Shown: one piece after another, positions 39,501-56,792 of the stretch
Numbering within the stretch: the first letter of the stretch is position 1
How the letters are laid out: the number at the start of each line of letters is the position of its first letter
Assembly: GCA_016201865.1 (NCBI GenBank)
Contig: JACQCA010000012.1
Location: 4,447-68,446 of the forward strand
Direction: 5' to 3'
Source of the DNA: Nitrospirota bacterium
GTDB lineage: Bacteria; Nitrospirota; Nitrospiria; JACQBZ01
DNA length: 64,000 bases
The notes under the pieces: generated by a model
The model's database searches: none
The model's input: only the letters and a program-made list of their open reading frames with translations
Told to the model about the DNA's origin: nothing
Made by a program: the position numbers and the translations under genes

Positions 39501-39843
39501 TCGCCCCGTGAGGGGTGTGACAGAAAACACAGACCTCGGACTGGCTCGCCGAGTGGGTCGTCCCGAACCCTGAAGAGGAAAGGTTATGTCGGCTGAGCCT
39601 GATATCCTCCTCGACAGCCACCGTCCCCGGCGGCAACGGCGGACATTCGGAACCGCCCGGACATGTGGCCCAGGCCTGCGAGTCGAGTATTGGGAGTTGA
39701 ACGTTGAAAGTTGAGAGCAAGGCGAAAATAAACCAAAAGAATACCACCTTGCCAGCGGCTGGGGACAGATTTGAAATCTGTCCCCTCCCGATTTTCAAAT
39801 CCGTCCCCTCCCGGTTCATCACTCTTCGATCCTTCCCTTTCAT
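36529..39843 (-). CDS. multiheme c-type cytochrome, 1104 aa, 11 CXXCH plus 1 CXXXCH heme-binding motifs, signal-anchored/secreted
   Basis: Motifs CVFCH, CLSCH, CTSCH, CLYCH, CRNCH, CFLCH, CVDCH, CFRCH, CTDCH, CFQCH, CHECH and CYLRCH. The N-terminal module (CVFCHTPHGAS...APIWNRNL...CLSCHDG...NDHPISF) matches the first module of the four smaller cytochromes at 57.9-63.6 kb. Strong RBS GGAGGAAGG before the ATG; hydrophobic segment VVFFWFIFALLSTF. Confidence 0.85.
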   Translation of the reverse strand: MKGKDRRVMNREGTDLKIGRGQISNLSPAAGKVVFFWFIFALLSTFNVQLPILDSQAWATCPGGSECPPLPPGTVAVEEDIRLSRHNLSSSGFGTTHSASQSEVCVFCHTPHGASSVGASSTLPAIKAPIWNRNLSYRDTTAYVLYDQAWSFSFEGALNDPSKPTGYSRLCLSCHDGVIAIGSVINKPGSGGYGTETPTTDFLGVGAMSTQAGAVGAGLLTGDTRVLGTNLQNDHPISFSFDSNLAVNVDAELVDPGPPAALSSITPLAPAGGYQTGVKRYPGNNPADPLDFNKVQCTSCHNPHAVTYPKFLRAPRFQDATETGYLVGEPARVAPAGQIICLYCHSKPGWDNSTHDISQAVHAAYPGASSPYDFDGGHTVAAYACRNCHDPHTAQGAKRLHREGVTAFGAGDAVENTCFLCHSPNNQTVSNVFLPAGDPTVQNVNHRFCDGTNTSGACGSSGSARVAPDIYSEFAKDSAICLGGSGGGSAMCLQLAGGHEPVIISRSQEGVQLRSEGAALVPVNNETTPGITTLDTTHVECVDCHNPHQVNSPNLAALSYNGAPNPPGGIGSPGANGQGARLKGAKGVGIDITGTRPVVVSRCLPGYVICGRDTTVDGTSANRDPYVYEVCFRCHGNSYEKVFGPDTGTPNLRYPNDVTSLAVPDGFASYKTTLFSPRTDPTNGATGTAFSFRGFSNKWRELNPQTADVETPAMLSIDLTRYGQVVFSHTQQIKNPAYHPVVKPGRNGAFQLCNQLAVAFSLNCGNGPGNVVPAPGNPAAASAALSNLTIQCTDCHNNNAYDVYSNIYQANLDAATAAQDNSGIRGPLTESNLRPTDVWPDLNAVIGFNYVTDRPGKPIGPHGSINRRILRANYDTDILSPIRCFEQNNPQISCAGKEGDGYSAPGGTPSHAIAGGGGGINPTHFRKFLLCFQCHDRRGFDPSAGNPIDSQSGTPSLDKDRSWTHFFGLNTAASSGGVDSWWNGNLHMYHLRWTGAMCHECHYNVHSNVEALNTIFGDGRGGMLPPDSVDGMTDGVVGTHLINFGPQAEGTTAQKPMWFYDGTSFRCYLRCHNEVMDSCAYQSSNTGTPNARWCAGGRNPGTSG

Positions 39844-39923: not shown

Positions 39924-42900
39924 TCACGGACCCGGAATAATCAGCTCATATGTATTCGTATCGCCACTGCCGTTTCCGGCCTGGATGAAATAGCCTTTCC
40001 ACGGCTCTAAGATCGCCTGCGGGGCGCTGTACACATCCGGCAAGGCCGGTGCCAGATAAATATAGTTGGCGCCCTTCAATTCATAAATGGCGCCCGCGTT
40101 TTGGATCCAGTTATTGGGATAGGGATTAGTGTACGCAGCAGTGTAGGTAACACAGCTTGCGTCATTGTTAAATATTCGAACCTTACTGTTCGTTAAATCC
40201 TTCCGTGTGGTGAACGGATTGCCAATCATGTTCCAACCCTTACTCAAGTGAATGGCGAAACTGTTGGCCACACCACAATATGTCCCATAGTTCACATCGC
40301 CCGCCTGCAGCGCACGCGATCCCACCGGCACATCAATCACGGGATTGTACGGTCCGCCGATTAAGAAGTAGCCTTCGCCGGGCTGAATCAGTAACGTTGT
40401 CGTCGTAAGGGGACCGGTGGCCGTGGCATGGGCCCAAATCTCGCTTGAGGTCAGCGCCCGGTTCCAGATCGCGACTTCGTCAACGGTGCCGGCCAAGAAT
40501 TGACTTTGTGTTCCGACCGCATCCCAAGCCGCCCCGATCGTGAGATTTCTGATTGTCGTCAGATTCGCCCCGATCAGGCTTGGGTTGGTCTGATTTATTT
40601 CTAACGCACCGTCAACATACACGAGAAGTTGACCTGTTGTGCTGTTCCATGTCATGGCAATGTGATGCCACTGCCCATCATTGATTACTTTTGTGGAAAG
40701 AGCAGGGACACCGTAATTTGCTCCTGTATTGGTTGTCACACCCGAATAAATGGAAGCGCTGAGTCCATTGTCAACGACAACATTATTTAATGTTGAAGCG
40801 CCGGAGATTTGCCAGCCCGCGGTGGTGCCTGCGTTTCCTGTGCCCCGTTTTTGGACAAGCCGCCATTGAGTCCCCTGGGTCGTTTTGATCCAGCCTTCAA
40901 CCGTAAAGCTCTGGGCGTTAAAATTCAAGACATTGCCCATATCCACATATTGCGTCGCCCCGTTCAAGGAAAGGGCACTGGTGAATTTACCCGCACCGTA
41001 TGAAGGACCGCCAACTAATGTGCCGTTATTTGCATACCCGCTCGAATCCGGCGTCGGACTTCCACCATCCAAATGCCACACGCCCACGGCATCCGATGAC
41101 AGGCCGTAGCCGGTATAAGTGGCATTATAGTTTATAAAGGAGCCGTTATCGGCGTTGAAGCCGGTTGAATTCCACCGGAAGAGCTGCGGCGCCCCGCTAA
41201 TGTCATCCTCGAAGATGACCATCGGATTCGGGCTGGCCGGCTTGAGCGGCACTGAGATAAGGTTGAAGTTCGTCCGAAGCGCCGTGCGGCCGGCCTTGCT
41301 GCCGTCGGTCGTGTTGTCGCCGCAGGAGGTCGTCGTCCCGGCGCAGTATGCGACGTTGGACATCAGCGACTGTCCCGTCGGAAATCCTCGCTCATCCGCG
41401 GCCTTGAGCGCAAAGTAGTAAATCGTATTTGTTGCCAGACCGGTCACCGTAAACGTTTCGGGAGACCCGGCTAATTGGGGCGCGGGTTCACCTGTGGCCT
41501 GCACCACGCAATCTACCGGCTTGGTGGAATCGGCGCAGGCAAGGTTGCTCCAGTCCACCTGATTGGCGCCGGGAGTTCCATCCACAATCGGCAGCATGGA
41601 GTACCGCACGTCGTAACTGGCGGCCGAGCCCACACCGGGCGCATCGAAATCATCTGGCGGCGCGGTCCAAGTCAGCGTAATGGAATCTTTGCGCTGTTCT
41701 CCCTGCTTGATGGTAAGATCCGTAACCGCTGCAGGAGCCTTCGTATCCGAACTTCCGGAGGTGGGGTTCGGAGCCTGAGCCTGGTTCGAGTAGGCCGAAT
41801 TGATATCCTGCGAGCCGTCTGAAGCCGCCCACACAGGACGAACAAAAGCTCTCACTTGATAGCAATATTTCTTCCCGGGTGTAAGCCCCGTGTCGGGATA
41901 ATAGACAAGGCCGCCGGTCGACGCCGACTGAACGGTGTCGCTCAAGACTTCTTTGATCTGGGTGAAGCCCGTGGTCGTACCCGGACAGACCCCGGTCCCG
42001 GTTATATCCAACCGCTCCACTTTAAACCCGGTTTCCGGATCCGGCGGACTGTTGGCGGAGCCGGAGTTGTCCACCCAGGTCAGATTAAGCTGCGTCTGAC
42101 TTAACGTCGCATCGGGCGGATTCGTGACCGTCAGGTTCGGCGCCCTGATCTGGGAAGCGGTGGGCGCAATGGCCGCAACGGCCTTGACCGAGTCGGGATT
42201 CGCAGCCATCGCAGCGTTTACTACGAGACCGCTGGTGGCTGCGGCATGGGCCTGAATTTCAGTCAGGGTCAGCGCCCGGTTCCAGATCACAACTTCGTCA
42301 ATGGAGCCGAGGAATGGGGACATGAAACCCGTGACCCCGGACACCCCGATCTTCAGGCTCCCCGTGGTGGCCACGCGAGGTTCTCCAACAATGGCTTGCG
42401 TCGTGCCATTCCGTGCCTCATTCACATAGAAGGTCACATTCCCGCCGCTCACTACCGCGGCGACATACTGCCAGATGCCTGGCGTCAATGAAGCGCCGTT
42501 GGAGATCGTATCCTGTGATGTTGCGCTCTTTCGATGGCTGAAATTGAGCAGGCCCGCCGAGGTAATACTTAATCGATATTCCGCATCGAAATTACCGCTC
42601 GGTTGCGCCTTGGATAAAATCCACCGCGTCGCGGCAAAATTAGTCGGATTCACCCATGCTTCAAGCGTGAGATCGCCGGTCAGTTGCAGGGGGGCCGCGT
42701 TCGGCACCTCCACATAATCATCCACGCCGTCGAAGGAGAGCGCGTTGACGAATCCTGATTTACCGGTGGTCCATGTAGGCATGGTAGAGACTCTGGTAAA
42801 GCTCAATTCATCCACCCAGCCATTGCCTGCAGGAGTGCCATCCGCAAAGCATCGGACATTAACGCTTGTCGTCCCCACCGGAATGAGTACAGTCTCAGTT

Positions 42901-45900
42901 GCAAACGTCCAATCGGCGTTGACATCCAGCCGTATGCCAGAAGAATCGATCCCTGTGCCCTGCACATCGCATTGCAAAAACTTATTCGTGCTGGTCAGTG
43001 AATTTCTCAACCAACCGCGCAGCACATATTGAGCATTGGCCGTCACGGCGACTGCCTGTTGTCTACCGAATGCCGCAGAGGTGCCGTTAAAGACAAGTTT
43101 CATGCTCTGCAAGCCGCCGTGTTGCACGGTGGCGTCCACATTTGACGAAGTGCCGGTGCCGATGACAACAGTCCAACTCGTCGGAGCCCCGGAAGTGGGA
43201 GTTTCAAAGCTGGGGTTTAATAAGAGGTTGGTTGCCGAAAGATACCCCGTATTGTTGTTGGTCGTTCCATCAGAAGTTGTCACGCCACTGCCCTCATCAA
43301 AATGCCACAGGCTTGCAGCAACACCCGATGTACAGGCCGAGGTGGTCGGGACGATGTTCACAATGATCTGCTCAGTCACAGCCCCAGAGAGCGGTGGTGT
43401 CGCCTTCAAGGTATACATCGCCGAAGCCCCCGGCAATATACTTCCTGTCGGATAGGATCCGTTGGATGTCTCGGTTGTGCCGTCGGTTACAGAGACGGTC
43501 CAGTTCGTGGGAGTGATCCAACTTAACGTGAATGTCGTCGCCGTAATCTGCTCGTTCTGGACCGATAACGCATAAGAAGACGTCGCGCCGGGCGTCACGG
43601 TCAGCGTCTGCGAGCCTCCGAGCCCGCTCCCCGTAGCGTCGTACACATTATCGCCGTTGCCGCCGATGATTCCATCCGCGCGGCAGGGAGCCGTGAAATC
43701 AGCATCCGCCGGAGTGGTTGGCGGACTGCCGTCGCTGTTGCTTCCGAACGAGACCCAGCCGCTGATTCCATCCGAACGTGCCGTGTCATCCAGCGCCCGC
43801 GCGCGCCAGTGATAACTTCCGCCCAAGGTCAGCCCGTTGACCGCTATGGCTTTGACGCCCGGCGCACCGTAAGTTGTCGAAGAAGGATTATAATGCGTCG
43901 CCGTTCCCGTAAAGGACGCCCCGACCGGCTGGACCTCGATTTCCAATCGAATATTGTTGGTCGGAAGCGTGTTCGTATCCGATACGGCCGCCTCAAGGCA
44001 GATGCCGGATGTGCTGATGACCCCTCCTACGGCCACCCCGGCTTCATTGCCGTCGCACGACCCATCATAGAACCGTTGTAGGAGGGAGATAACCGGCGTC
44101 GCATTCACCACCATAAAGTCCGTGTTCCCCGATGTCCCGAACTCGGTCCAGCCGGTGAACCCTCCCGCGCTGTCCACCGCGCGGTACTTCCAATGATAAC
44201 TCGTCCCATAGGACAACGACCCCACTTCGACCTTTGCAACCGTCCCGGACTTGACCGCAAGGCTGCTTGCGGTGACGTTACCGATAAAGGTCGAGCTCAT
44301 CGGCACGACCTCCACCTGCAACTGGAGCTCCTGAGGCGGGAGGGTATTGACATCCACCAGCGTCGCATTCATGCAGATGGTTTGCTGTAAGATGGCGCCC
44401 GCCGCGGCGGCGCCCACCTGCTCAACCACCGTCGCTTCATTCGCATCACACGAACCGTCATACACCCGCTGCCGGACCGTCGCGGCATTAATCGTGGGCG
44501 TTGCATTCGTCACGGTGAAATCGGTATTGTTCACCGTCCCGAACTCGGTCCAGTCGCTGGCCCCGCCCGCGCTGTCCACCGCGCGGTACTTCCAATGATA
44601 ACTCGTCCCATAAGAAAGACTGCCCGTATCAAAAGCGCGGGTATAGTGGTCGGTGATTTGGTCCGGGTTCAGGGGAATGTTGAAGATGGCCACTTCGTCC
44701 ATGCGGCCGTCGAATGGCCAACCCGGCAAGTCCGGACGGTATCCGATATCAACCGTATCGACTGTATCCCCAACACCTCCCGTAAAGGTCCCGGTCGCAT
44801 CGAGGATTGCATTCAGATACAAATTGATATTGGTTCCGTCATACGTCATGGCCACATGATACCAGTTACCGGGAACCAGAGGAGTGCCTCCTGTGACCTC
44901 AGCGCTCAACCCAAATGCTACCCCGCCATCTCCTATATAACCAGCTAACAGTCCATCCGGTCGGACCGCGAGTACATAGTTTAACTCTTTGGCAACAATG
45001 GTCTGAGGATCTGGGGTTGGGGTCAAGGAATTGAGATTGACCCATGCTTCCACACTCATATTGGTCATCCCATCCAGGGTCGGACTATCCGGCACCACCA
45101 CGTGATCGAGCGTCGCGGCAGCGAAACTGCCCGCGGCCGCGCCCAGTCGGGATGCGATCGTAAAGGTTGCGCCATTGACGGCCGTTCCGTTGTTGACGGG
45201 GATATTGAGCGAGCTGTCCAACCAGTCATTATTCATATGCCACAAGGCCATAAGATTCGAGTTCAACACGCCGGGGCCCAAATCACCGGGGGCCAACCCC
45301 CTCCCCGGTGTCCCGGAAGGCCCTGAAACACGGGCTATCCCCCCGTCGATCACGAGCCCGCTCGTTGACGATGCCGTTCCGGTAAAGGTCTGGCTCACCG
45401 GCTTGACTTCCACCTCCAGCGTGATCGTCTGGGACGGCAGCGTGCTTGTGTCCCGCAGAGAAGCTTCAAAGCAGATATTCTGCTGAAAAATGCTGGTATT
45501 TTCGGGCACGACCGCGCCGCTTCCGTTGCAAGGAGAGGGAATGCTATTATACACCCGTTGGTTTGCCGTTCCGGCCTGAATCGTCGGCAGCGCATTCACC
45601 ACTTTGAAATCGGTGTTCCCCGACGTCCCGAATTCGGTCCAGACGCTGGCGGCATTCAACTGATCCACCGCGCGGTATCGCCAGTGATAGCTCGTCCCAT
45701 AGGACAGCGACCCCACCTCTATCGTTGCCACACCTCCGTCGCTGACCGGGCCGCTCGTCGCCACGGCCCCCCCAAAGGTCGAGGTAACCGGCTGCACCTC
45801 CACCTGCAGCGTGATCGTATCGCCCACATTGACATCCGACAGCGTCGCGTTCAAGCAGATGCTCAATTCCCCGATGGTGCCCGCCGGGGTGGCGCCCGCC

Positions 45901-48233
45901 TGTTCAGCCACCGTGCTCCCGGCCAACGTCGGACAACTTCCAAGGTCCTTCCGTTGCTGCACCGTGGCGGGATTGATCGTTGGGGCCGCATTCCCCACGC
46001 TAAAGCTCGCGCCGCTCACATCCGTCCCAAATGAGGTCCAGGCGCTGTATCCATCCGCGTCACGCAAGGTGGAGTCCTTCGCGCGATACTGCCAGTGATA
46101 ACTGCCGTCGGCAAGCCCGCTCACACGGACCCGTCCAATGATTCCGTCCGTCACGGCGGTGCCGCGGCTTACGGTCGTCGCATTGCAGGCCCCTGTCCCC
46201 GTGCAGCTAAAGGTCGACGTCGTCGGCTGCACTTCGACCTCTAACGTGATCGTCTGGCTCGGAAGCGTGTTCGCATCCGACAGCGTCGCATTAAAACAGA
46301 TATTCCCCACACTGACGACGCCTCCGACGATAACCGTTGTCTCGCCCGGAACAGTACTCCCATTGCAGACCCCGTCGTCATCCACCCGTTGCTGCGCCAG
46401 AGTCGCCGTGGGCGTCTTATTCACGACATTAAAATCCGGATCATTCGGATCGAAATTCGTCGCAAACGAGGTCCAGCCGCTCTCGAGACCGGTCGGATCC
46501 ACCGCCCGCGCCTGCCAGTGATAACTCGTGCCGTAGGCCAAAGGCGCACCGCCGCGAAGATAGTGATCGGCGATCTGCGGCGCCGTGAGGGGAGCGCTAA
46601 AGATGGCGACCTCGTCAATGAAGCCGTTGAAAAAATCGCTGCATGTCGTGCTGGCGACACCACTGCATGCCGCTCCGATTTGGTTGTCTCTTGTAGAATT
46701 GTTGATGGTCCTTGCTGCGGAGTTCCTTAGCGTCCCGTCCACATAAATATAACCGTTTGTCCCATCCCATACACCTGCGATGTGATGCCATGCCCCGTCA
46801 GAAACAGACACGCCCGAATCTAATGTGCTCCCGCCAATTACGACCGCGGCATTACTCCATGTAAAAGGGCGTCCTGATTGTAGATAAAGTTGATATCCAC
46901 TCCCGCCGTCATAGGTTGAGAATACCACCTGAGTCGTTGCACTGGTTGTTTTGACCCACGCCTCTACTGTTTTAGTGGTGCCGGTATTTATGGCTGACGC
47001 ATTACCTACTATTACAAAATTACTGCCGCCGTTAAACGAAAGGGCTCGGTTAAATCTGCCCGCGGTGGTCCAGGCCGTGCCGCCGGTCAACGTCCCTGTA
47101 TCCGCCGGCACGTTTCCACTGTCGGCCGCCGTCAACCCCGTCCCTTCATCGAAATGCCATAGGGCCAGAAGGCTCGAATCCGCTACACCCGGCCCTAAGT
47201 TGCCGGGAATGGACAATGGATTTATAGGTCCTACTTGTATTACAGTACCTACCCCCACGCTTCCACTGTTGAGCGGGTCAATCGCCACCGTCGCAGTATT
47301 GGAAAACGCCGTCCCCACCGGCTGCACTTCAACCTCCACGCGAACGGTCGCACTATCAAGATCATCTGCCTTCGTCTCCAAGCAGATGGTCTGCTGAAGA
47401 ATATCGCCGCCCACTCTCACCGTCGTCTCGTCGCCGTTGCAGGCAACTCCATCCCAGACCCGCTGCTGCAATGCGCTGATGGTCGGCGGGAACTTTGTCG
47501 GGATAAAGTCCGTGTCGAACGGATCGAAATTCGTCCCGAAGGAGGTCCAGGCGCTGGCTGCTCCGATGCTATCCAGGCCGCGTGCCTGCCAGTGATACGC
47601 CGTGTTAAAGGTGAGGGCGCTGAACGTGATCCGCGCCACCGTCCCGCTGTTCACGGCGCCGCTCGTCACCACCTGCGGCGATGCCGCGCAGGTTCCCGTC
47701 CCCGTACAGCCGAAGGTCGTCGCCGTCGGCTGCACCTCCACCTGCAACTGGATCGTCTGGGGCGGATTCGTATTGGTATCGTTTACGGTCGCCTCAAGGC
47801 AGATCGTCGTTTGATCAATATTGCCGCCCACCCCCACCGTCGTCTCGATGCCGTCGCATGAGCCGTCGTAAATCCGTTGCTGAAGACCCGTGACCGACGG
47901 CGCCGCATTCACCACCGTAAAGTCCGTGTTCAGCGCCGTCAAATATTCCGTCCAACCGGTCTGCCCATCCGTCCGAGCCGTCGAGTCCAACGCACGGTAC
48001 TGCCAATGATAGCTCGTCCCGTACGACAACGACCCCGCCCGCACCCGCGCGATCTGCCCGGTGTTCACGGTGCCGCTCGTCACCACCTTCGCCGACGCCG
48101 TGCAGGTCCCCGTCGCCGGACAGCCGCAACTCCCCGATCGTCCCCGTGATCTCGGCCACCACGTTCCCGGCCGTCGTCGGACAACTTCCCAGGTCCTCCC
48201 GCTGCTCGACGAACGCCAGCGTCGGCGTCGCAT
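39924..48233 (-). CDS. giant repetitive surface/adhesin-like protein, distal 2769-aa portion (FN3-like repeats, LamG domains, 2 FN3, C-terminal domain)
   Basis: About 8 repeats carrying the ...LSYGTSYHW(Q/K/R)(Y/A)RA(V/L)D...W(T/V)(E/S)FG signature (FN3-like F-G strand pattern). LamG (Laminin_G_3-type) modules: LALWHFDEGTG...VEAWVKTT...IDEVAIFSAPLTAPQIADHY, MALWHMNNDW...VEAWVNLN...MDEVAIFNIPLNPDQITDHY, LSFDGVDDYVEV...LEAWVNPTN...IDEVVIWNRALTLTEIQAH, VGVWHLDGG...VEGWIKTT...VDEVAIWNRALTSSEIWAH. FN3: LTVTNPP...KKYCYQVRAFV and TDLTIKQGEQ...TIYYFALKAADERG. The first 35 residues (MRRRRWRSSSSGRTW...) are an out-of-frame read of a duplicated repeat segment, so this is not a real N-terminus. Confidence 0.7.
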   Translation of the reverse strand: MRRRRWRSSSSGRTWEVVRRRPGTWWPRSRGRSGSCGCPATGTCTASAKVVTSGTVNTGQIARVRAGSLSYGTSYHWQYRALDSTARTDGQTGWTEYLTALNTDFTVVNAAPSVTGLQQRIYDGSCDGIETTVGVGGNIDQTTICLEATVNDTNTNPPQTIQLQVEVQPTATTFGCTGTGTCAASPQVVTSGAVNSGTVARITFSALTFNTAYHWQARGLDSIGAASAWTSFGTNFDPFDTDFIPTKFPPTISALQQRVWDGVACNGDETTVRVGGDILQQTICLETKADDLDSATVRVEVEVQPVGTAFSNTATVAIDPLNSGSVGVGTVIQVGPINPLSIPGNLGPGVADSSLLALWHFDEGTGLTAADSGNVPADTGTLTGGTAWTTAGRFNRALSFNGGSNFVIVGNASAINTGTTKTVEAWVKTTSATTQVVFSTYDGGSGYQLYLQSGRPFTWSNAAVVIGGSTLDSGVSVSDGAWHHIAGVWDGTNGYIYVDGTLRNSAARTINNSTRDNQIGAACSGVASTTCSDFFNGFIDEVAIFSAPLTAPQIADHYLRGGAPLAYGTSYHWQARAVDPTGLESGWTSFATNFDPNDPDFNVVNKTPTATLAQQRVDDDGVCNGSTVPGETTVIVGGVVSVGNICFNATLSDANTLPSQTITLEVEVQPTTSTFSCTGTGACNATTVSRGTAVTDGIIGRVRVSGLADGSYHWQYRAKDSTLRDADGYSAWTSFGTDVSGASFSVGNAAPTINPATVQQRKDLGSCPTLAGSTVAEQAGATPAGTIGELSICLNATLSDVNVGDTITLQVEVQPVTSTFGGAVATSGPVSDGGVATIEVGSLSYGTSYHWRYRAVDQLNAASVWTEFGTSGNTDFKVVNALPTIQAGTANQRVYNSIPSPCNGSGAVVPENTSIFQQNICFEASLRDTSTLPSQTITLEVEVKPVSQTFTGTASSTSGLVIDGGIARVSGPSGTPGRGLAPGDLGPGVLNSNLMALWHMNNDWLDSSLNIPVNNGTAVNGATFTIASRLGAAAGSFAAATLDHVVVPDSPTLDGMTNMSVEAWVNLNSLTPTPDPQTIVAKELNYVLAVRPDGLLAGYIGDGGVAFGLSAEVTGGTPLVPGNWYHVAMTYDGTNINLYLNAILDATGTFTGGVGDTVDTVDIGYRPDLPGWPFDGRMDEVAIFNIPLNPDQITDHYTRAFDTGSLSYGTSYHWKYRAVDSAGGASDWTEFGTVNNTDFTVTNATPTINAATVRQRVYDGSCDANEATVVEQVGAAAAGAILQQTICMNATLVDVNTLPPQELQLQVEVVPMSSTFIGNVTASSLAVKSGTVAKVEVGSLSYGTSYHWKYRAVDSAGGFTGWTEFGTSGNTDFMVVNATPVISLLQRFYDGSCDGNEAGVAVGGVISTSGICLEAAVSDTNTLPTNNIRLEIEVQPVGASFTGTATHYNPSSTTYGAPGVKAIAVNGLTLGGSYHWRARALDDTARSDGISGWVSFGSNSDGSPPTTPADADFTAPCRADGIIGGNGDNVYDATGSGLGGSQTLTVTPGATSSYALSVQNEQITATTFTLSWITPTNWTVSVTDGTTETSNGSYPTGSILPGASAMYTLKATPPLSGAVTEQIIVNIVPTTSACTSGVAASLWHFDEGSGVTTSDGTTNNNTGYLSATNLLLNPSFETPTSGAPTSWTVVIGTGTSSNVDATVQHGGLQSMKLVFNGTSAAFGRQQAVAVTANAQYVLRGWLRNSLTSTNKFLQCDVQGTGIDSSGIRLDVNADWTFATETVLIPVGTTSVNVRCFADGTPAGNGWVDELSFTRVSTMPTWTTGKSGFVNALSFDGVDDYVEVPNAAPLQLTGDLTLEAWVNPTNFAATRWILSKAQPSGNFDAEYRLSITSAGLLNFSHRKSATSQDTISNGASLTPGIWQYVAAVVSGGNVTFYVNEARNGTTQAIVGEPRVATTGSLKIGVSGVTGFMSPFLGSIDEVVIWNRALTLTEIQAHAAATSGLVVNAAMAANPDSVKAVAAIAPTASQIRAPNLTVTNPPDATLSQTQLNLTWVDNSGSANSPPDPETGFKVERLDITGTGVCPGTTTGFTQIKEVLSDTVQSASTGGLVYYPDTGLTPGKKYCYQVRAFVRPVWAASDGSQDINSAYSNQAQAPNPTSGSSDTKAPAAVTDLTIKQGEQRKDSITLTWTAPPDDFDAPGVGSAASYDVRYSMLPIVDGTPGANQVDWSNLACADSTKPVDCVVQATGEPAPQLAGSPETFTVTGLATNTIYYFALKAADERGFPTGQSLMSNVAYCAGTTTSCGDNTTDGSKAGRTALRTNFNLISVPLKPASPNPMVIFEDDISGAPQLFRWNSTGFNADNGSFINYNATYTGYGLSSDAVGVWHLDGGSPTPDSSGYANNGTLVGGPSYGAGKFTSALSLNGATQYVDMGNVLNFNAQSFTVEGWIKTTQGTQWRLVQKRGTGNAGTTAGWQISGASTLNNVVVDNGLSASIYSGVTTNTGANYGVPALSTKVINDGQWHHIAMTWNSTTGQLLVYVDGALEINQTNPSLIGANLTTIRNLTIGAAWDAVGTQSQFLAGTVDEVAIWNRALTSSEIWAHATATGPLTTTTLLIQPGEGYFLIGGPYNPVIDVPVGSRALQAGDVNYGTYCGVANSFAIHLSKGWNMIGNPFTTRKDLTNSKVRIFNNDASCVTYTAAYTNPYPNNWIQNAGAIYELKGANYIYLAPALPDVYSAPQAILEPWKGYFIQAGNGSGDTNTYELIIPGP

Positions 48234-48664
48234 TCACCACCGTAAAGTCCGTGTTCCCGGACGTTAAATACTCCGTCCAGCCGCTGGCTATTGCTTGGTC
48301 ATCCAACGCACGGTACTGCCAATGATAGCTCGTCCCGTACGACAACGACCCCGCCCGCACCCGCGCGATCTGCCCGGTGTTCACGGTGCCGCTCGTCACC
48401 ACCTTCGCCGACGCCGTGCAGGTCCCCGTCGCCGGACAGCCGCGCCGTGCAGGTCCCCGTCGCCGGACAGCCGAAGGTCGTCGCCGTCGGCTGCACCTCC
48501 ACCTGCAACTGGATTGTCTCGGCCACATGGACATCCGACAGCGTCGCATTAAAGCAGATGCTCAACTCCCCGATCGTCCCCGTGATCTCGGCCACCACGT
48601 TCCCGGCCGTCGTCGGACAACTTCCCAGGTCCTCCCGCTGCTCGACGAACGCCAGCGTCGGCGG
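47987..48664. repeat. perfect local tandem duplication inside the giant gene: 141-bp unit X (about 47987-48127 and 48303-48443) and 101-bp unit Y (about 48128-48228 and 48564-48664), plus a ~31-bp direct duplication (about 48413-48443 / 48444-48474)
   Basis: The identical peptide GCPATGTCTASAKVVTSGTVNTGQIARVRAGSLSYGTSYHWQYRALD is encoded twice (N-terminus of the 2769-aa ORF and inside the 244-aa ORF 47815..48549). TLAFVEQREDLGSCPTTAGNVVAEITGTIGEL is also encoded twice (244-aa ORF and the C-terminus of the 1519-aa ORF). Copy 1 joins X directly to Y, lacking the ~89-bp segment Z (about 48475-48563) present in copy 2. Copy 2 carries the extra ~31-bp duplicate. Both changes shift the frame; the 1519-aa ORF ends in the out-of-frame reading RLSGDGDLHGVGEGGDERHREHRADRAGAGGVVVVRDELSLAVPCVG. 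Unit boundaries +/-2 nt. Confidence 0.7.
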
Positions 48665-51600
48665 CGTATTCGTCACCTTAAAATCCGAATTCGCCTCGGG
48701 ATTCCCCCCAAAGGACGTCCAGGCGCTGACCACGTTGTTGTTGTCCACGCCGCGGTACTGCCAATGATAGTTGGTGCCGTACGTGCGCCCGGAAACAGCC
48801 ACCGTAATAACGACACCCTGGGTCGTAAAACCGGAACAATCCGGCGAACAGAACTGTGCGGTATTGCTGAAGGTCGTCAAGACCGGTTGCACCTCCACTT
48901 CCAGCCGGACAGAGTTTCCTTCGACATCGGCCACATTGGCCTCAAGACAGATGGAGGTCTCGTTAATCTCGCCCCCCACCGGCACCGTCGTTTCGCTGCC
49001 CAAACAGACTGAGTCGGCAAACACATCCACACGCTGCTGCACCGTCGAGGCGTTGATCGTCGGCGGGAAATTATTCATTCTAAAATCGGTATTGTTCGCC
49101 GCTCCAAACTCGGTCCAGACGGTGGCCGCTCCACGGTCGTCCACCCCACGGTACTTCCAGTGATAACTGGTCCCGGAGACCAGCCCGCCCACCGAAATAA
49201 TTTTAGTCCCGCCGGAGGCAAAGGAACCGAGAGGCGGTTCGGAATGCGTGGCTGTTCCAGAAAAAGTGCTGGTGGTCGGCTCCACCTCGACCTCGAGACG
49301 AACCGGATTTAGGTCCGGATCGGTTATATTCCCCTGAAGGCATATGGTGGTTGTAAGAACGTCAGTCCCCTCCGGAATGACGATCCCGCTCCCAACGGCA
49401 CAAGTTCCGTTGAAGAGGTTCCGCTGCAGCGGCGGCGACGTTGTCGTGTCGATGATCGGCGGGTGATTCGTCACGGTAAAATCGGTATTGTTCGCCGTCC
49501 CGAACTCGGTCCAGGCGCTGATTCCATCGGCACGCGTCGTATCATCCACCGCGCGATACTGCCAGTGATAGCTCGTACCGGACTGGAGCGGACCCACCGT
49601 CACCCGCGCCACAGGGGCAGACTCGGTCACGGCCGTGCTTGTCCAGTTCTGAGTACCCGAGAAGGTCGACGTGGTCGGCTGGACTTCCACCTGCAACGTG
49701 ATCGTCTGATTGCTCGTCAAACCGGATAGCGGCAACTTGTTATTGGGATCCGAAAGCGTCGCATTAAGACAGATGCTTGTCTGGTCAATTGCGCGGCCTT
49801 CCACCACGGTGACTTCCCCGGCCCCCAATCCGTCGCACGCTCCGTCATATACCCGCTGCTCGACGGCCGATGCCGTCGGCGGCAAGTTCACCACTTTGAA
49901 ATCCGTGTTCCCCGCCGTTCCAAACTCGGTCCAGCCGGTGGCCGCGTTCAGGTTATCCACCCCACGCGCCTGCCAGTGATAAGAACTGCCATAGGAACGT
50001 CCGCTGATCGTCACAATTTTTTGGCCCTGTGCCGATGTGCCGGCACAGGTGGAAGCGTCGTCGCAGAAAATATTTGTGGTGCCGTCAAAGGTAGACCCTG
50101 TCGGCTTCACCTCCACCTCAAGACGGATGGTCTGTACGGGATCGATATCGGTCACATTCACATCAAGGCAGATCGTCGTGGTTCCAACGCTGCCTTGCTC
50201 CGACACCGTGGTCTCATTGCCTTTGCAGCGTAAGCTGTTATCGAAAATCCGCTGCAGCATTGTGATCATCGTAGGAGGCAGGTTGACCGCGCTGAAATCA
50301 ATCCCAGACGGCTCGGGATTCGCCCCAAACAAGATCCAGCCGCTGGGCGCTCCCTGTTCATCCACCGCACGTGCCTGCCAGTGATATTTTGTGCCGTAAG
50401 AAACAGTAACCGGCAAATACTTGCCGGTCTGCAAGTCAAAGGAACCGGTCGTAGTAGCGGCATTGCCAAAGGTCGTCCCGATCGGCTGCACCTCCAACTC
50501 AAGACGGGTTTGCTGGGTTGAATCCGTATCGTTCACAGTCGCTTCAAGGCAGATGGTCTGCGCATTAATGCTGCCCCCCACAACCACCGTGCTCTCATTG
50601 CCTTTGCAGCGCAAGCTGTTATCGAAAATCCGCTGGTTCAGGCTGCCGGCGATGATTGTAGGCGGCACATTGACCGGTATAAAATCGACGTTCGAGGGAT
50701 AAACTGCGCCGTCATTATTCCCAAAGTCGCTCCAGCCGCTGTCTGCTCCAAAGCTGTCCACCCCACGCGCCTGCCAGTGATATTCCGTGCCGTAGGAAAG
50801 CCCTCTGATCGTCACAATTTTTTGGCCCCCTGTCGATGTGCCGGTACAGGTGGAAATGTCGTCGCAGAAAATATCGGTGACAGTGTCAAAGGGCTTGACC
50901 AACGGCTTTACTTCCACCTCCAACCGGACGGCATTACCGTCAGGATCGGTGACATCTGCGTCAAGGCAGATAACCCGCGTGTTAATGCTGCCCCCCACAA
51001 CCACCGTGGTCTCATTGCCTTTGCAGCGCAAGCTGGTATCGAAAATCCGCTGCAGCATGGCGCTGATCGCGGGCCGGGTATTACCCACGGTGAAATCGGA
51101 CGCCGCAGAAACGGTCGGAGGATTGCCGTCGCTGTTGTTCCCAAAGGAGAACCAAGATGTGGTCGTCCCCCCGGGGAAATCCACCACACGCGCGCGCCAG
51201 TGATAGCTTTTACCGTTGGCAAGCCCGGTCACCGTCACAATTTTTTGGCCCTGTGCCGATGTGCCGGCACAGGTGGAAAGGTCGTCGCAGAAAAGATTGG
51301 TGGCGCCGTCAAAGGACGTTCCCACCTCCTTTACTTCAACTTCGAGACGGACACTTTGGCCGGCGGCATCGGTCACATCCGCCTCAAGGCAGATGGTCTG
51401 TGTTCCAATGCTGCCCCCCACGGCCACCGTGGTCTCATTGCCTTTGCAGCGCAAGCTGGTATCGAAAATCCGCTGCAGCATGGCGCTGATCGTGGGAGAA
51501 GGAGAGCCTATACTAAAATCCGGATCAAACGGATCGGTATTCGTCCCAAACGAGGTCCAGGCGCTGACACCATCGGTGCGCCCCGTATCATCCACCCCAC

Positions 51601-52858
51601 GCGCCCGCCAGTGATAAGCCGTGCCGGAGGAAAGCCCGGTCACCGTCACAATTTTTTGGCCCTGCCCCGATGTGCCGGCACAGGTGGAAAGGTCGTCGCA
51701 GAAAAGATTGGTGGTGCCGTTGAAGGTCACGCCGACCGGCTTCACCTCCACCTCAAGACGGACACCGTTTCCGGCGGCATCCTGCACATCTGCATCAAGG
51801 CAGATGGCCTGTGTATTAATAGTGCTCCCCATGTCCACCGTTGTCTCATTGCCTTTGCAGCGTAAGCTGGTATCGAAAATCCGCTGCGTCATTGCGCCGA
51901 GGGTGGGCGGCGTATTCACCGTCTTGAAATCGGTATTCCCCGCCGTTCCAAACTCGGTCCAGCCGGTGGCCAAACCTACCATATCCACTCCACGCGCGCG
52001 CCAGTGATAAGAACTGCCGTAGGAAAGGCCGGTCACCATGGCAGGGAACGGAGTCTGGACACCCGTGGTGACGCAGTCATTTGAAGGTGAGCAGAAAATA
52101 TTGGTGGTGCCGTTAAAGGTCGCCCCTGCCGGTTTTACTTCGACCTCCAGCCGGACGGTATCGCCGGCAACATCCTCCACAGTCGAATCAACGCAGATGC
52201 TCCGCGTATTAATCGTGCCTTGCTCCGACACCGTGAACTCATTGCCCTTGCAGCGTGCGGTGGCATCGAAAATCCGCTGGTTCATTGCGCCGATGGTGGG
52301 CGGCGTATTCACGGCGGTGAAATCCGGATCCGAGGGCAATGGATTCCGATCGATATTCGTCCCAAACGAGGTCCAGGCACTGGCCGCTCCCGTGAAATCC
52401 ACCCCCCGCGCGCGCCAGTGATAAGAACTGCCGTAGGAAAGGCCGGTCACCGTGGCAACATAAGTAGTGTTCTGGATGCCGGTGGTGATACAATCAGATG
52501 AAGGTGAGCAGAAAATTTTGGTGGTGCCGTCAAAGGTTATGCCGACCGGTTTCACTTCGACCTCAAGCCGGACGGTATCGCCATCGCCGTCGGTAATATT
52601 GGCCTCAAGGCAAACGGTCTGTGTATTAATAGTGCTCCCCATGGCCACCGTTGTCTCATTGCCTTTGCAGCGTCCGGTGGTATCGAAAATCCGCTGCAGC
52701 ACACTGCCCGGGGTGATCGTAGGGGCAACGGCCGAGGAGGCGGTTCCGCTGAAGATGATTGGAAGAAGTTGGAGGGCAAAGAAGGCCGTCACCCCTACTG
52801 CTTTGAGGAGCAGAGGTCCTTTCAGAACAGTTCGCCCTCTGTCGGCTTGCAATCTCAT
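48299..52858 (-). CDS. giant repetitive surface/adhesin-like protein, proximal 1519-aa portion with signal peptide and about 11 FN3-like repeats
   Basis: N-terminus MRLQADRGRTVLKGPLLLKAVGVTAFFALQLLPIIFSGTASSA (signal peptide). Repeats each carry L(R/C)CKGNETTV....I.T..ICL(E/D)A.V.D..G..VRLEVEVKP.G..F.GTT..FC.......G.......V.GLS.G(S/T).YHW(R/Q)ARGVD. The last repeat is truncated by the frameshift. Confidence 0.7.
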   Translation of the reverse strand: MRLQADRGRTVLKGPLLLKAVGVTAFFALQLLPIIFSGTASSAVAPTITPGSVLQRIFDTTGRCKGNETTVAMGSTINTQTVCLEANITDGDGDTVRLEVEVKPVGITFDGTTKIFCSPSSDCITTGIQNTTYVATVTGLSYGSSYHWRARGVDFTGAASAWTSFGTNIDRNPLPSDPDFTAVNTPPTIGAMNQRIFDATARCKGNEFTVSEQGTINTRSICVDSTVEDVAGDTVRLEVEVKPAGATFNGTTNIFCSPSNDCVTTGVQTPFPAMVTGLSYGSSYHWRARGVDMVGLATGWTEFGTAGNTDFKTVNTPPTLGAMTQRIFDTSLRCKGNETTVDMGSTINTQAICLDADVQDAAGNGVRLEVEVKPVGVTFNGTTNLFCDDLSTCAGTSGQGQKIVTVTGLSSGTAYHWRARGVDDTGRTDGVSAWTSFGTNTDPFDPDFSIGSPSPTISAMLQRIFDTSLRCKGNETTVAVGGSIGTQTICLEADVTDAAGQSVRLEVEVKEVGTSFDGATNLFCDDLSTCAGTSAQGQKIVTVTGLANGKSYHWRARVVDFPGGTTTSWFSFGNNSDGNPPTVSAASDFTVGNTRPAISAMLQRIFDTSLRCKGNETTVVVGGSINTRVICLDADVTDPDGNAVRLEVEVKPLVKPFDTVTDIFCDDISTCTGTSTGGQKIVTIRGLSYGTEYHWQARGVDSFGADSGWSDFGNNDGAVYPSNVDFIPVNVPPTIIAGSLNQRIFDNSLRCKGNESTVVVGGSINAQTICLEATVNDTDSTQQTRLELEVQPIGTTFGNAATTTGSFDLQTGKYLPVTVSYGTKYHWQARAVDEQGAPSGWILFGANPEPSGIDFSAVNLPPTMITMLQRIFDNSLRCKGNETTVSEQGSVGTTTICLDVNVTDIDPVQTIRLEVEVKPTGSTFDGTTNIFCDDASTCAGTSAQGQKIVTISGRSYGSSYHWQARGVDNLNAATGWTEFGTAGNTDFKVVNLPPTASAVEQRVYDGACDGLGAGEVTVVEGRAIDQTSICLNATLSDPNNKLPLSGLTSNQTITLQVEVQPTTSTFSGTQNWTSTAVTESAPVARVTVGPLQSGTSYHWQYRAVDDTTRADGISAWTEFGTANNTDFTVTNHPPIIDTTTSPPLQRNLFNGTCAVGSGIVIPEGTDVLTTTICLQGNITDPDLNPVRLEVEVEPTTSTFSGTATHSEPPLGSFASGGTKIISVGGLVSGTSYHWKYRGVDDRGAATVWTEFGAANNTDFRMNNFPPTINASTVQQRVDVFADSVCLGSETTVPVGGEINETSICLEANVADVEGNSVRLEVEVQPVLTTFSNTAQFCSPDCSGFTTQGVVITVAVSGRTYGTNYHWQYRGVDNNNVVSAWTSFGGNPEANSDFKVTNTPPTLAFVEQREDLGSCPTTAGNVVAEITGTIGELSICFNATLSDVHVAETIQLQVEVQPTATTFGCPATGTCTARLSGDGDLHGVGEGGDERHREHRADRAGAGGVVVVRDELSLAVPCVG

Positions 52859-52865
52859 GGCTGTT

Positions 52866-53510
52866 CTATGACACCCTCAACACAAAATGCCGAATCTGCC
52901 CGTCAGCGGCGTAGGTAAGCGGGCCGCTCGCGCAGAGATCCGTTTGGGGCAGTTGTCCTTCTGTGTTCCAGAGCATAAACTGATGGGTGGCGCAGCTTAC
53001 CCCGCCGGCAGGCGGAACCCAGGAAACCGTGACGGTTCTCCCCGATGCCGCAACCACCTCGATCCGCCATTCCGCAGGCAGATTGAGCGATCGGAGATCC
53101 TGCCACAGTTGTTGGCTGTTCGTGTCGTAACCGGCATCGCCGGCATGAGCGAAATAGGCCTGAATCGGCGCATCGGTGTACAAGAGGGCTCGGACATCCC
53201 CTGCGTTGTCAAACCCGTCTGTTGCAGTTTCTCCTACTCCGGCCGACAGACGGTTATACGCCACGCCGCCGTCCGCCCCACTCTCCGGCACCGATATCTG
53301 AAGTGTCAACCGCCAGCCCGCGGGCTTGGAGCCAATTTGAGGCGCCGCTCCCCCATCGGGCGAAGAGGATGAACCCCGATCCTGGCATGCAAACAGCCCA
53401 AGCATCCCGAATACTAAAACGAGCCCATGAATCGCGCGCGTCATTTGGTTTATGCTTGACGGTTTGTGGTTGAGGGCTGCCGTAAGGGTATGCATCACAC
53501 CTCCAAACAT
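52866..53510 (-). CDS. small lipoprotein of unknown function (about 190-214 aa), 8 nt upstream of the giant gene
   Basis: Lipobox-containing signal MTRAIHGLVLVFGMLGLFACQDRG. The likely start is the second ATG (about 53495), preceded by GGAGG. No recognisable domain. Co-directional and nearly abutting the giant gene start. Confidence 0.45.
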   Translation of the reverse strand: MFGGVMHTLTAALNHKPSSINQMTRAIHGLVLVFGMLGLFACQDRGSSSSPDGGAAPQIGSKPAGWRLTLQISVPESGADGGVAYNRLSAGVGETATDGFDNAGDVRALLYTDAPIQAYFAHAGDAGYDTNSQQLWQDLRSLNLPAEWRIEVVAASGRTVTVSWVPPAGGVSCATHQFMLWNTEGQLPQTDLCASGPLTYAADGQIRHFVLRVS

Positions 53511-53565
53511 TCTAATTTAAGATTTTCCCCTATGTTACGGCAATAAAAGAGATTTTCCCTTTTTA

Positions 53566-53593
53566 ATCTTACCACTTTTAGACCTGCTGTCAA
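53566..53593 (-). promoter_or_regulatory. candidate sigma70-type promoter for the lipoprotein + giant-gene transcription unit
   Basis: On the minus strand: TTGACA, 16-nt spacer (gcaggtctaaaagtgg), TAAGAT. It sits in a 96-bp AT-rich gap after the NHL gene stop (53607). Coordinates +/-2. Confidence 0.35.
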
Positions 53594-53606
53594 CGACAAA
53601 CAGGCC

Positions 53607-54716
53607 TTATTGTATTGGATTTTTTGTTCCTTCAACAGCGCCTCCGGCCGGTTGTGGCTGAGAAGCCGACGCATCTTCTTTAGGACTGCCTAAAAATAGA
53701 AATACCTGGACCCGTTGGTTATAAGTGTCCGCCACGTAAATCCGGTTCTTGTCGTCAATCGCGATCCCCGCCGGAAGGTAGAAATCCCCTTCTTTTTCAC
53801 CTGTTTGACCGAAATTCATCAATAAATCCCCTGTGCGGTCGAAGATCTGAATCGTGTCGAAGATCCCGTCCACAACGTAAATATGCCCTTCCAAATCCAC
53901 GGCGACGCCCTTCGGCTTTGAAAAACTACCGAGGATATTGCCCATTTGACCTAACTTTCCCTGAAATTTTCCTTCCGAGTCGAAAATCTGCACGCGGAAA
54001 TTCATCGAGTCCGTAATGTAGAGGGCGCCTTTGGAATCAACCGCAATGTGGGTCGGAAAATTTAATTCGCCCTCTTTTTCGCCCCGTTGGCCGAAGGTCG
54101 TTACCACGTTGCCGTCCGGATCGAATACCGTTACCCGATGGGCCGCGGTATCCACCGCGTAGAGGCGGCGCAACTTCGGATGATACGCGATGCCGGTCAG
54201 CCGCTGGAACTGCCCCGGTTCGCCGATCGTCTTTACCAATCGTCGTCTTTTGGGTTCGTAGACAAAGATACGGTTGAGTTGGGAATCGGAAACATAAAGC
54301 AACCCCTTTTCATCCAGCGCCACGCCCACCGGCGACATCAACCGGGACCGGCCCCGGACAATCCAGAAGATTTGCTGATAGCTCTTCGATGGAAAATCGT
54401 AGATGTGGACCGTCTGTAGACCGGTGTCCGCCACATAAACGCGGCCGGAACCATCCGTTGCCACGGCATACGGACGAAGCATATGAGGGCTGCCTTCCTC
54501 GCCGAACAGAAATTCGACGGCCTTCATGAACCAACTCCGCTTGGCCCCCATGTCCTTCGGTTCGGAGAAACTATTCAGATACGAAATCACGGGAGGATCC
54601 GGCGGCGTCGGCCAAGACCGCTCGACACGAGATCGGACCGGTTCCATGGCGGCGCACGCCGATAGAACGACGACGATGCCGATCCCGATAACCGTCTGAA
54701 TCGCCCGCTTCATCAC
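53607..54716 (-). CDS. NHL-repeat beta-propeller lipoprotein (369 aa)
   Basis: Track start is GTG followed by ATG: MMKRAIQTVIGIGIVVVLSACAAME (lipobox LSAC). NHL blades: VYVADTGLQTVHIYD, LYVSDSQLNRIFVYE, LYAVDTAAHRVTVFD, LYITDSMNFRVQIFD, IYVVDGIFDTIQIFD, IYVADTYNQRVQVF. Confidence 0.8.
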   Translation of the reverse strand: MMKRAIQTVIGIGIVVVLSACAAMEPVRSRVERSWPTPPDPPVISYLNSFSEPKDMGAKRSWFMKAVEFLFGEEGSPHMLRPYAVATDGSGRVYVADTGLQTVHIYDFPSKSYQQIFWIVRGRSRLMSPVGVALDEKGLLYVSDSQLNRIFVYEPKRRRLVKTIGEPGQFQRLTGIAYHPKLRRLYAVDTAAHRVTVFDPDGNVVTTFGQRGEKEGELNFPTHIAVDSKGALYITDSMNFRVQIFDSEGKFQGKLGQMGNILGSFSKPKGVAVDLEGHIYVVDGIFDTIQIFDRTGDLLMNFGQTGEKEGDFYLPAGIAIDDKNRIYVADTYNQRVQVFLFLGSPKEDASASQPQPAGGAVEGTKNPIQ

Positions 54717-56683: not shown

Positions 56684-56792
56684 CGGCCTCGCGCCCAGGA
56701 TTCATGTCGCTGCTGACGAATTAAATGGCGATCTATTTATCCCGCCGCCTCGTCCTAACGAAACGGCGTTCCCACGGTTTTTTACGCTTGAA

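What the first reader, a model, noticed from the sequence alone, without database searches (positions are those of the whole stretch)
47987..48664. Giant gene is broken at a perfect tandem duplication: ~141-bp and ~101-bp units repeated 316/436 nt apart, plus a ~31-bp microduplication and an ~89-bp deletion, yielding three overlapping ORFs
Seen in the sequence and ORF track: the peptide GCPATGTCTASAKVVTSGTVNTGQIARVRAGSLSYGTSYHWQYRALD is encoded twice, and TLAFVEQREDLGSCPTTAGNVVAEITGTIGEL twice. ORFs 48299..52858, 47815..48549 and 39924..48233 overlap in three different frames. The 1519-aa ORF terminates while reading a duplicated segment out of frame. The 2769-aa ORF begins inside the duplication with an Arg-rich out-of-frame read-through and no signal peptide. 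Two adjacent 100%-identical repeat units are a hotspot for replication slippage (genuine phase-variable or pseudogenised adhesin) and equally for short-read mis-assembly. Either way the annotated protein boundaries here are wrong.
Basis: seen in the sequence. Interest (0 to 1): 0.6.

Follow-up and report, generated by a model that had tools for sequence, protein, structure and literature searches.

The report
Scaffolding scar splits a giant gene
A 13-kb gene for a giant secreted repeat protein looks broken into three overlapping reading frames, but both breaks sit exactly where two assembler contigs would end on the same 141-base k-mer, so the break is most likely a join error made while scaffolding a metagenome, not biology.

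Summary
The minus-strand gene 52858..39924 is built of about 405-nt (135-aa) FN3-like units. It carries a 31-nt exact tandem duplication and lacks 89 nt in the next unit. Each lesion shifts the frame by +1, giving three overlapping ORFs. Undoing both lesions gives one 4330-aa open frame.

The two lesions are not independent. On the + strand both abnormal joins (48126|48127 and 48442|48443) come directly after the same 141-nt sequence, and neither join has microhomology.

The window is 100% identical to Logan contigs of run SRR12113410. It also shares an exact protein (MBI3609371.1) with a 79.9-kb NCBI Nitrospirae MAG contig. Both point, circumstantially, to BioProject PRJNA640378. That project used 150-nt reads, MEGAHIT with default settings (largest k = 141) and IDBA-UD scaffolding.

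Best reading (about 0.85): a scaffolding or local assembly error inside the only repeat that k=141 cannot resolve. A genuine recent pseudogene or a switchable gene remains possible (about 0.1). Reads were not available. Interest is low.

The parts
39924..52858 (-). Whole giant gene locus. As assembled it is three overlapping ORFs. Repaired, it is one 4330-aa secreted protein: a signal-peptide-like N-terminus, about 17 FN3-like 135-aa units, 4 Laminin_G_3 matches, fn3 and a C-terminal region.
   Evidence: signal peptide judged by eye only
48299..52858 (-). ORF 1 (1519 aa). It is in the true frame up to the first copy of the 31-mer. It then reads the duplicated 31-mer and the 141-nt repeat out of frame to a stop at 48299..48301.
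47815..48549 (-). ORF 2 (244 aa). It is in the true frame only between the two bad joins (rest of unit A, the linker and the start of unit B). No Pfam hit.
39924..48233 (-). ORF 3 (2769 aa). It begins with an Arg-rich out-of-frame reading of the second 101-nt copy. It is in the true frame from 48126 downstream.
48563..48663 (-). P, copy 1 of the 101-nt exact repeat (unit A)
48127..48227 (-). P, copy 2 of the 101-nt exact repeat (unit B)
48474..48562 (-). S, the 89-nt segment present only in unit A. It encodes SICFNATLSDVHVAETIQLQVEVQPTATTF, which covers the invariant Cys and the LEVEV-P strand conserved in the aligned units.
48443..48473 (-). X, first copy of the 31-mer CGGCTGTCCGGCGACGGGGACCTGCACGGCG. 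This is the extra copy that makes the tandem duplication.
48302..48442 (-). R, copy 1 of the 141-nt exact repeat. It starts with the second copy of X. On the + strand it ends at the abnormal join 48442|48443.
47986..48126 (-). R, copy 2 of the 141-nt exact repeat. It starts with the third copy of X. On the + strand it ends at the abnormal join 48126|48127.
48228..48301 (-). U, the unique 74-nt linker between unit A and unit B (DDQAIASGWTEYLTSGNTDFTVVNAT). It is found nowhere else in the window, which implies that at least two units really exist.
48126..48127 (.). Join J2: P joined directly to R, with the 89 nt missing and no microhomology.
48442..48443 (.). Join J1: X joined to X (31-nt duplication), with no microhomology.

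Best explanation
The break is a scaffolding or local assembly error in a short-read metagenome assembly, not a feature of the organism.

The real gene most likely has two (or more) adjacent FN3-like units that are identical over a tract of at least 141 nt. The most parsimonious tract is 331 nt: P, then S, then R. In a de Bruijn graph with k = 141 that tract cannot be resolved. Read on the + strand, the contig arriving from the downstream part of the gene and the short contig carrying the linker U both stop on the same 141-mer, at 47986..48126 and 48302..48442.

A paired-end scaffolder then joined the pieces using insert-size distance estimates rather than true overlaps. One join lost 89 nt. 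The other kept 31 nt twice. Each error shifts the frame by +1, so a continuous gene of about 4330 aa appears as three overlapping ORFs.

Shown: the anatomy, the 141-nt coincidence, the lack of homology at the joins, the k=141 prediction and the published pipeline. Inferred: that this MAG came from that pipeline, and how the scaffolder trimmed the incoming contigs.
For: 1. Both abnormal joins lie immediately after the same 141-nt sequence on the + strand.
The predicted contig ends match both joins to the base. k=119 and k=99 place the ends at 48104 and 48084 instead.
3. Neither join has any microhomology, and the exact duplication length is 31 with no extension. Slippage would normally use microhomology.
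4. Provenance. The window matches Logan contigs of SRR12113410 at 100% over 5472 nt and 2538 nt. The SurA-like ORF is identical to MBI3609371.1 from a 'Nitrospirae bacterium' MAG, on a 79,922-nt NCBI contig. SRR12113421 is stated to be source data for a MAG from He et al. 2021, the BioProject PRJNA640378 study.
5. That study used 150-nt paired reads with 400-600 bp inserts, MEGAHIT 1.2.9 with default parameters, and then the IDBA-UD scaffolding function. The curation script ra2.py does not occur in its main text.
6. PMC10914622 reports that MEGAHIT contigs broken at repeats share end sequences of length maxK, uses the k-list ending in 141, and warns of errors introduced by IDBA_UD scaffolding.
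7. PMC7111523 describes local assembly errors unsupported by any read, duplicated sequence at scaffold joins, and an error in a repeat-containing protein gene.
8. The scars occur only at the one repeat of 141 nt or more. About ten internal repeats of 31-69 nt in the same gene are crossed cleanly.
9. There is no other stop or frameshift in 12.9 kb, and the 101- and 141-nt copies are 100% identical. That is no decay at all.
Against: - No reads were available, so absence of read support for the two joins is not shown.
- The link from the window to PRJNA640378 is circumstantial: neighbouring SRR numbers, the accession series and the organism name.
- Only the left side of each join is predicted by the k=141 model. 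The right sides need the scaffolder to have trimmed the incoming contigs by 40 and 110 nt. I assume this from memory of the IDBA code and could not verify it.
- The join from the repeat contig into the upstream contig is seamless, which the model does not explain.
- MEGAHIT alone cannot create joins without supporting k-mers, so the whole argument depends on the scaffolding step.
Confidence: 0.85

Rival explanations
1. The gene is a genuine, very recent pseudogene. Two real indels, a 31-nt tandem duplication and an 89-nt deletion, arose in vivo in two near-identical adjacent units. They split the giant surface-protein gene into a secreted 1519-aa N-terminal fragment and untranslated or unexported remainders.
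For: The sequence as given contains both lesions. Near-identical tandem units are known hotspots for rearrangement (general knowledge). De Bruijn assemblers themselves do not invent junction k-mers. No protein from this gene is on record although a neighbouring protein from the same NCBI contig is. That is compatible with the public annotation treating the gene as frameshifted.
Against: Two independent events would have to share one breakpoint, and that breakpoint would have to lie exactly 141 nt from the end of the identical tract. That is roughly a 1-in-300 coincidence at best. Neither join has microhomology. No significant DNA hairpin lies at either join (z = -1.3 to +1.2). There is no further decay in 12.9 kb.
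Confidence: 0.07
2. This is a hybrid. One lesion is real, for example the 89-nt deletion in unit B, which would then define where the exact repeat begins. The other lesion is an assembly scar made at that repeat boundary.
For: A real deletion would make the left edge of the exact repeat coincide with the first base of the 31-mer. An assembler scar at that same edge would then be expected.
Against: The repeat would still need to be exactly 141 nt long by chance. The k=141 model already explains both joins with a single cause.
Confidence: 0.05
3. This is a phase-variable (contingency) gene. Copy-number change of the 31-nt repeat, or recombination between the 31-mers, switches expression of the giant adhesin-like protein on and off.
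For: Recombination between the first and third 31-mer (a 347-nt loss) would restore a 4195-aa open frame.
Against: Removing one 31-nt copy alone does not restore the frame; the first stop is then at codon 1670. Recombination between the long repeats (losing 316 or 436 nt) also leaves the frame broken. A 31-nt unit present twice is not a typical slippage tract. Unit B lacks the conserved core strands.
Confidence: 0.02

Closest known systems
Local assembly or scaffolding errors in repeat-containing genes of short-read MAGs, as described by Chen et al. 2020 (PMC7111523) and in the COBRA paper (PMC10914622)
   Same: The error sits inside a protein gene with internal repeats. Contigs are broken at a repeat and share an end sequence of length maxK (141 for default MEGAHIT). 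Sequence is duplicated or lost at a scaffold join. The consensus is expected to lack support from any read.
   Different: The joins here carry no N run. Whether reads support them could not be checked.
Frameshifted pseudogenes of giant repetitive surface proteins
   Same: A very long repeat-rich gene is split into several ORFs by indels in near-identical units.
   Different: There is no other degeneration. The breakpoints coincide with an assembler k-mer length. No independent assembly shows the same lesions.
Slipped-strand phase-variable (contingency) genes
   Same: A direct repeat inside a surface-protein ORF changes the reading frame.
   Different: The unit is 31 nt, is present only twice and has no flanking homology. 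Changing its copy number alone cannot reopen the gene.
Giant bacterial extracellular proteins built of FN3/Ig-like repeats with LamG (Laminin_G_3) modules
   Same: The repaired product has a signal-peptide-like N-terminus, about 17 all-beta 135-aa units matching the Pur_ac_phosph_N and Ig_Rha78A_N Pfam models, four Laminin_G_3 matches and fn3. An AlphaFold model of one unit (pLDDT 87) resembles FN3 domains.
   Different: The nearest relatives in 5.8 billion proteins are only 30-36% identical. The fold matches are weak (E about 2e-3, TM 0.35-0.5). Function is unknown.

Membership tests
Scaffolding/local assembly error (MEGAHIT k=141 contigs joined by a paired-end scaffolder) | The abnormal join lies at the end of a sequence of length maxK that is shared by two contig ends | tested here: met
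   The same 141-mer (47986..48126 and 48302..48442) precedes both joins. A k=141 graph of the repaired gene predicts both ends to the base.
Scaffolding/local assembly error (MEGAHIT k=141 contigs joined by a paired-end scaffolder) | The join is not homology-mediated (butt join or mis-trimmed overlap) | tested here: met
   Both joins have 0 nt of microhomology, and the duplication is exactly 2.0 copies.
Scaffolding/local assembly error (MEGAHIT k=141 contigs joined by a paired-end scaffolder) | The sequence was produced by such a pipeline | tested here: inconclusive
   The window is identical to Logan contigs of SRR12113410 and shares an exact protein with an NCBI Nitrospirae MAG (MBI3609371.1). 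SRR12113421 belongs to the He et al. 2021 study, which used MEGAHIT default plus IDBA-UD scaffolding. The link for this exact run and MAG is by adjacency of accession numbers only.
Scaffolding/local assembly error (MEGAHIT k=141 contigs joined by a paired-end scaffolder) | No read supports the junction, and repeat depth is about twice that of the flanks | not testable with these tools
   There is no access to reads or to Logan unitigs.
Phase-variable contingency locus | A multi-copy short tandem repeat whose copy-number change restores the frame | tested here: not met
   There are only two copies of a 31-nt unit. Removing one leaves a stop at codon 1670.
Frameshifted pseudogene | Frame-disrupting lesions in the sequence | tested here: met
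   There are two +1 shifts and three overlapping ORFs.
Frameshifted pseudogene | The lesions are reproduced in independent data, or other signs of decay are present | tested here: not met
   No other stop occurs in 12.9 kb once the two scars are undone. No second assembly of the gene was found in any collection.
Programmed ribosomal frameshifting or bypassing | Recoding would yield a complete, foldable product | tested here: not met
   Unit B lacks 89 nt encoding the invariant Cys and the LEVEV-P strand. No recoding event can supply these.
FN3-like/LamG giant extracellular repeat protein | FN3-like beta-sandwich repeats plus LamG domains | tested here: met
   Pfam hits are Pur_ac_phosph_N, Ig_Rha78A_N, fn3 and Laminin_G_3 (E = 9.5e-96, 4 stretches). 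An AlphaFold model of one unit has pLDDT 87 and its best PDB matches are FN3 domains, though weak.

The most novel reading that the evidence does not exclude
Both junctions are real. In that case a groundwater Nitrospirota carries a giant FN3/LamG surface-protein gene that was switched off very recently by two linked rearrangements at one site in two identical repeat units. It could be switched back on by a 347-nt deletion between 31-nt repeats, which yields a 4195-aa open frame. That would be an unusual recombination-based on/off switch for a giant adhesin-like protein.
Probability: 0.06. Interest if true: 0.3.

Novelty: not a real feature. Interest (0 to 1): 0.07.

Why it matters
The main value is as a caution. 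The three ORFs should not be read as three proteins, as a pseudogene or as a phase-variable adhesin. The organism most likely encodes one secreted protein of about 4330 aa.

The case also gives a reusable sequence-only diagnostic. Non-homologous joins that directly follow an exact repeat whose length equals the assembler's largest k (141 for default MEGAHIT) mark scaffolding scars in public MAGs. Such scars propagate truncated or frameshifted giant genes into protein databases.

Tried and rejected
**Look-ups and searches that gave nothing**
- Exact-protein look-ups of the 1519-aa ORF and five neighbouring ORFs found nothing. Only two neighbours were found, both on short Logan contigs.
- A search with the repaired two-unit region found only 30-36% identical relatives. 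No orthologue or second assembly exists to compare.
- A search with the full 4330-aa protein timed out.
- A protein scan and a flanking-DNA scan of the GTDB representative genomes found nothing.
- Two degenerate DNA scans of JGI metagenomes found nothing.
- I tried to fetch the predicted Logan unitig next to the repeat through its partial protein.

**Ideas rejected**
- *The 31-nt duplication is an untrimmed k=31 overlap.* About ten other internal repeats of 31 nt or more in the same gene carry no scar, and the likely pipeline has no k=31 step.
- *A hairpin or replication-stall site explains the shared breakpoint.* Folding energies of both strands at both joins are no better than shuffled sequence (z = -1.26, -0.73, +0.93, +1.15). 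Only two weak 17-nt inverted repeats more than 1 kb apart were found.
- *A simple recent 405-nt tandem duplication.* The 74-nt linker U is unique, so the identical tract (331 nt when repaired) is shorter than the period.
- *Programmed frameshifting.* The missing 89 nt encode conserved core residues.
Full report
**Observation.** The finding's coordinates and arithmetic hold. Read on the minus strand, the region has this order:
- upstream unit
- P, 101 nt, 48663..48563
- S, 89 nt, 48562..48474
- X, a 31-mer, 48473..48443
- R, 141 nt beginning with a second copy of X, 48442..48302
- U, a unique 74-nt linker, 48301..48228
- P again, 48227..48127
- R again, 48126..47986
- downstream unit

Unit A therefore carries one extra X. 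Unit B lacks S. Each lesion shifts the frame by +1. This yields ORFs 48299..52858, 47815..48549 and 39924..48233 in three frames.

Deleting one X and restoring S gives a single 12,993-nt open frame of 4330 aa. Collapsing the 347 nt between the first and third X also opens the frame, at 4195 aa. Every other single edit leaves the gene broken.

The 31-nt duplication is the only exact tandem duplication of period 15-300 in the window. P and R are the two longest exact repeats; the next longest is 69 nt. Units A and B are 94% identical at the DNA level, against 79% for the next-best pair and a median of 68%.

**What the gene is.** The repaired product has a signal-peptide-like N-terminus, judged by eye. 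It contains about 17 tandem 135-aa units with two invariant cysteines and an invariant YHW..R..D motif. It also contains four Laminin_G_3 matches, fn3 and a long C-terminal region.

An AlphaFold model of one unit (pLDDT 87, pTM 0.81) is all-beta. Its best PDB matches are FN3 domains, but they are weak (E about 2e-3, TM 0.35-0.5).

The missing segment S encodes the invariant Cys and the LEVEV-P strand found in the aligned units. Unit B as assembled could therefore not fold, whatever the frame.

The closest relatives among 5.8 billion proteins are only 30-36% identical.

The gene sits in a 64-kb block in which every gene is on the minus strand. The block encodes PD40, NHL and YncE-like beta-propellers, three FGE-sulfatase-like proteins, a multihaem cytochrome and a SurA-like chaperone.

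**Provenance.** Two Logan contigs of run SRR12113410 match the window at 100% identity, over 2538 nt and 5472 nt. One of them ends exactly 30 nt into a 45-nt internal repeat of the giant gene, as a k=31 unitig should. The reads of that run therefore agree with the window outside the scars.

The SurA-like protein is identical to NCBI MBI3609371.1, 'MAG... [Nitrospirae bacterium]', on a 79,922-nt contig.

A preprint names SRR12113421 as source data for a MAG from He et al. 2021, the BioProject PRJNA640378 study. SRR12113410 lies 11 accession numbers away. That project's supplementary tables list several Nitrospirae MAGs with GC of 56-58%, and the window's GC is about 57%. The link is circumstantial, but I consider it likely.

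He et al. used 150-nt paired reads with 400-600 bp inserts and MEGAHIT 1.2.9 with default parameters. [quoted passage not shown] The term ra2 (ra2.py, the lab's local-error script) does not occur in the paper's main text.

**The decisive pattern.** On the + strand both abnormal joins, 48126|48127 and 48442|48443, come directly after the same 141-nt sequence (47986..48126 = 48302..48442). The 142nd matching base is a 1-in-4 chance identity across the join.

The largest k-mer of default MEGAHIT is 141. That is my own knowledge, and the k-list '21,29,39,59,79,99,119,141' for v1.2.9 is quoted in PMC10914622. The same paper reports that contigs fragmented at repeats carry shared end sequences of length maxK for MEGAHIT. 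[quoted passage not shown]

The converging node falls at exactly window 47986..48126 and 48302..48442. Two contigs are therefore predicted to end at 48126 and 48442, which are the two joins. With k=119 or k=99 the ends would be at 48104 or 48084.

Neither join has any microhomology. DNA folding around them is no better than shuffled sequence. About ten other internal repeats of 31-69 nt are crossed without damage. This fits an assembler that fails only at the one repeat of 141 nt or more.

Chen et al. 2020, from the same laboratory, describe exactly these error classes. [quoted passage not shown]

**Mechanism proposed.** The following is inferred.
1. The real gene has at least two adjacent units that are identical across a tract of at least 141 nt, most simply the 331-nt P-S-R tract.
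2. MEGAHIT broke the assembly there.
3. The downstream contig and the short U-bearing contig both ended on the terminal 141-mer.
4. The scaffolder ordered the pieces correctly from read pairs but joined them by estimated distance.
5. One join lost 89 nt, and the other left 31 nt of a 141-nt overlap untrimmed.

The presence of the unique linker U, flanked by R and P, implies that two units really exist. The true copy number cannot be known without read depth.

**What the model does not explain.** Only the left side of each join is predicted. The right sides need the incoming contigs to have been trimmed by 40 and 110 nt. I attribute that to distance-based trimming in the IDBA scaffolder, but this is from memory and unverified. 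The join from the repeat contig into the upstream contig is clean, which I cannot account for.

**Rivals.**
- *Genuine recent pseudogene.* This needs two non-homologous events sharing one breakpoint that happens to lie exactly 141 nt from the end of the identical tract. It also needs zero further decay in 12.9 kb. I give it about 0.07.
- *Hybrid of one real lesion and one scar.* About 0.05.
- *Phase variation.* This fails its own test. Removing the 31-nt copy alone leaves a stop at codon 1670, and recombination between the long repeats leaves the frame broken. Only a 31-nt-homology deletion of 347 nt would restore a frame. About 0.02.
- *Programmed recoding.* Excluded, because the missing 89 nt encode core residues.

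**What led nowhere.**
- Exact-protein look-ups for six ORFs.
- The 4330-aa homology search, which timed out.
- Both GTDB genome scans and both JGI metagenome scans.
- My early idea that the 31-nt copy was an untrimmed k=31 overlap. I dropped it because other repeats of 31 nt or more show no scars and the likely pipeline has no k=31 step.

**Verdict.** The hedged interpretation resolves towards mis-assembly, specifically a scaffolding scar at the only repeat that k=141 cannot resolve. Confidence is about 0.85, short of certainty because no reads could be examined and the provenance is circumstantial.

As biology the feature is probably not real and interest is low. The practical points are that the gene should be treated as one ORF of about 4.3 thousand codons, and that non-homologous joins directly abutting a maxK-length exact repeat are a usable sequence-only flag for such scars in public MAGs.

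Noticed in passing
window 13080..30717 (minus strand): There is an array of at least 12 paralogous genes of about 355 aa encoding PD40/TolB-like beta-propellers. Two YncE/lactonase-like propellers (22646..24681) and a 615-aa Ycf48/BNR-like protein (26771..28618) are interspersed. The whole 64-kb window is co-directional on the minus strand.
   Followed up: partly
window 34003..39843 (minus strand): Three tandem FGE-sulfatase (SUMF1-like) genes (34003..36503) lie directly next to a 1104-aa multihaem cytochrome with paired CXXCH motifs (36529..39843). That cytochrome lies immediately downstream of the giant gene.
   Followed up: partly
window 43752..52738 (minus strand): The 135-aa repeat unit of the giant protein has two invariant cysteines and an invariant YHW..R..D motif. 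Its only relatives in 5.8 billion proteins are 30-36% identical. It may be an undescribed FN3-like repeat subfamily.
   Followed up: partly
window about 44523..44927 and 46470..46874 (minus strand): The LamG modules appear to be inserted into the unit array. Each is followed by only the C-terminal 'YGTSYHW...D' strand region of a unit, as if LamG replaces the N-terminal half of that unit.
   Followed up: no
window 39770..39813: A 23-nt tandem repeat (TTTCAAATCCGTCCCCTCCCGAT, 1.9 copies) lies at 39770..39813, within the 5' end of the listed cytochrome ORF (36529..39843) and just downstream of the giant gene's stop (39924).
   Followed up: no
window 50757..51887: A 423-nt period tandem array (2.7 copies, 77% matches) lies within the N-terminal units. 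It contains exact sub-repeats of up to 69 nt, all crossed in frame by the assembly.
   Followed up: partly
L002 (Logan SRR12113410_60985), equal to window 57893..52422: The Logan k=31 contig stops exactly 30 nt into a 45-nt internal repeat of the giant gene (52407..52451). This shows that Logan contigs behave as plain unitigs here. It also explains why no Logan protein covers the repeat region.
   Followed up: yes
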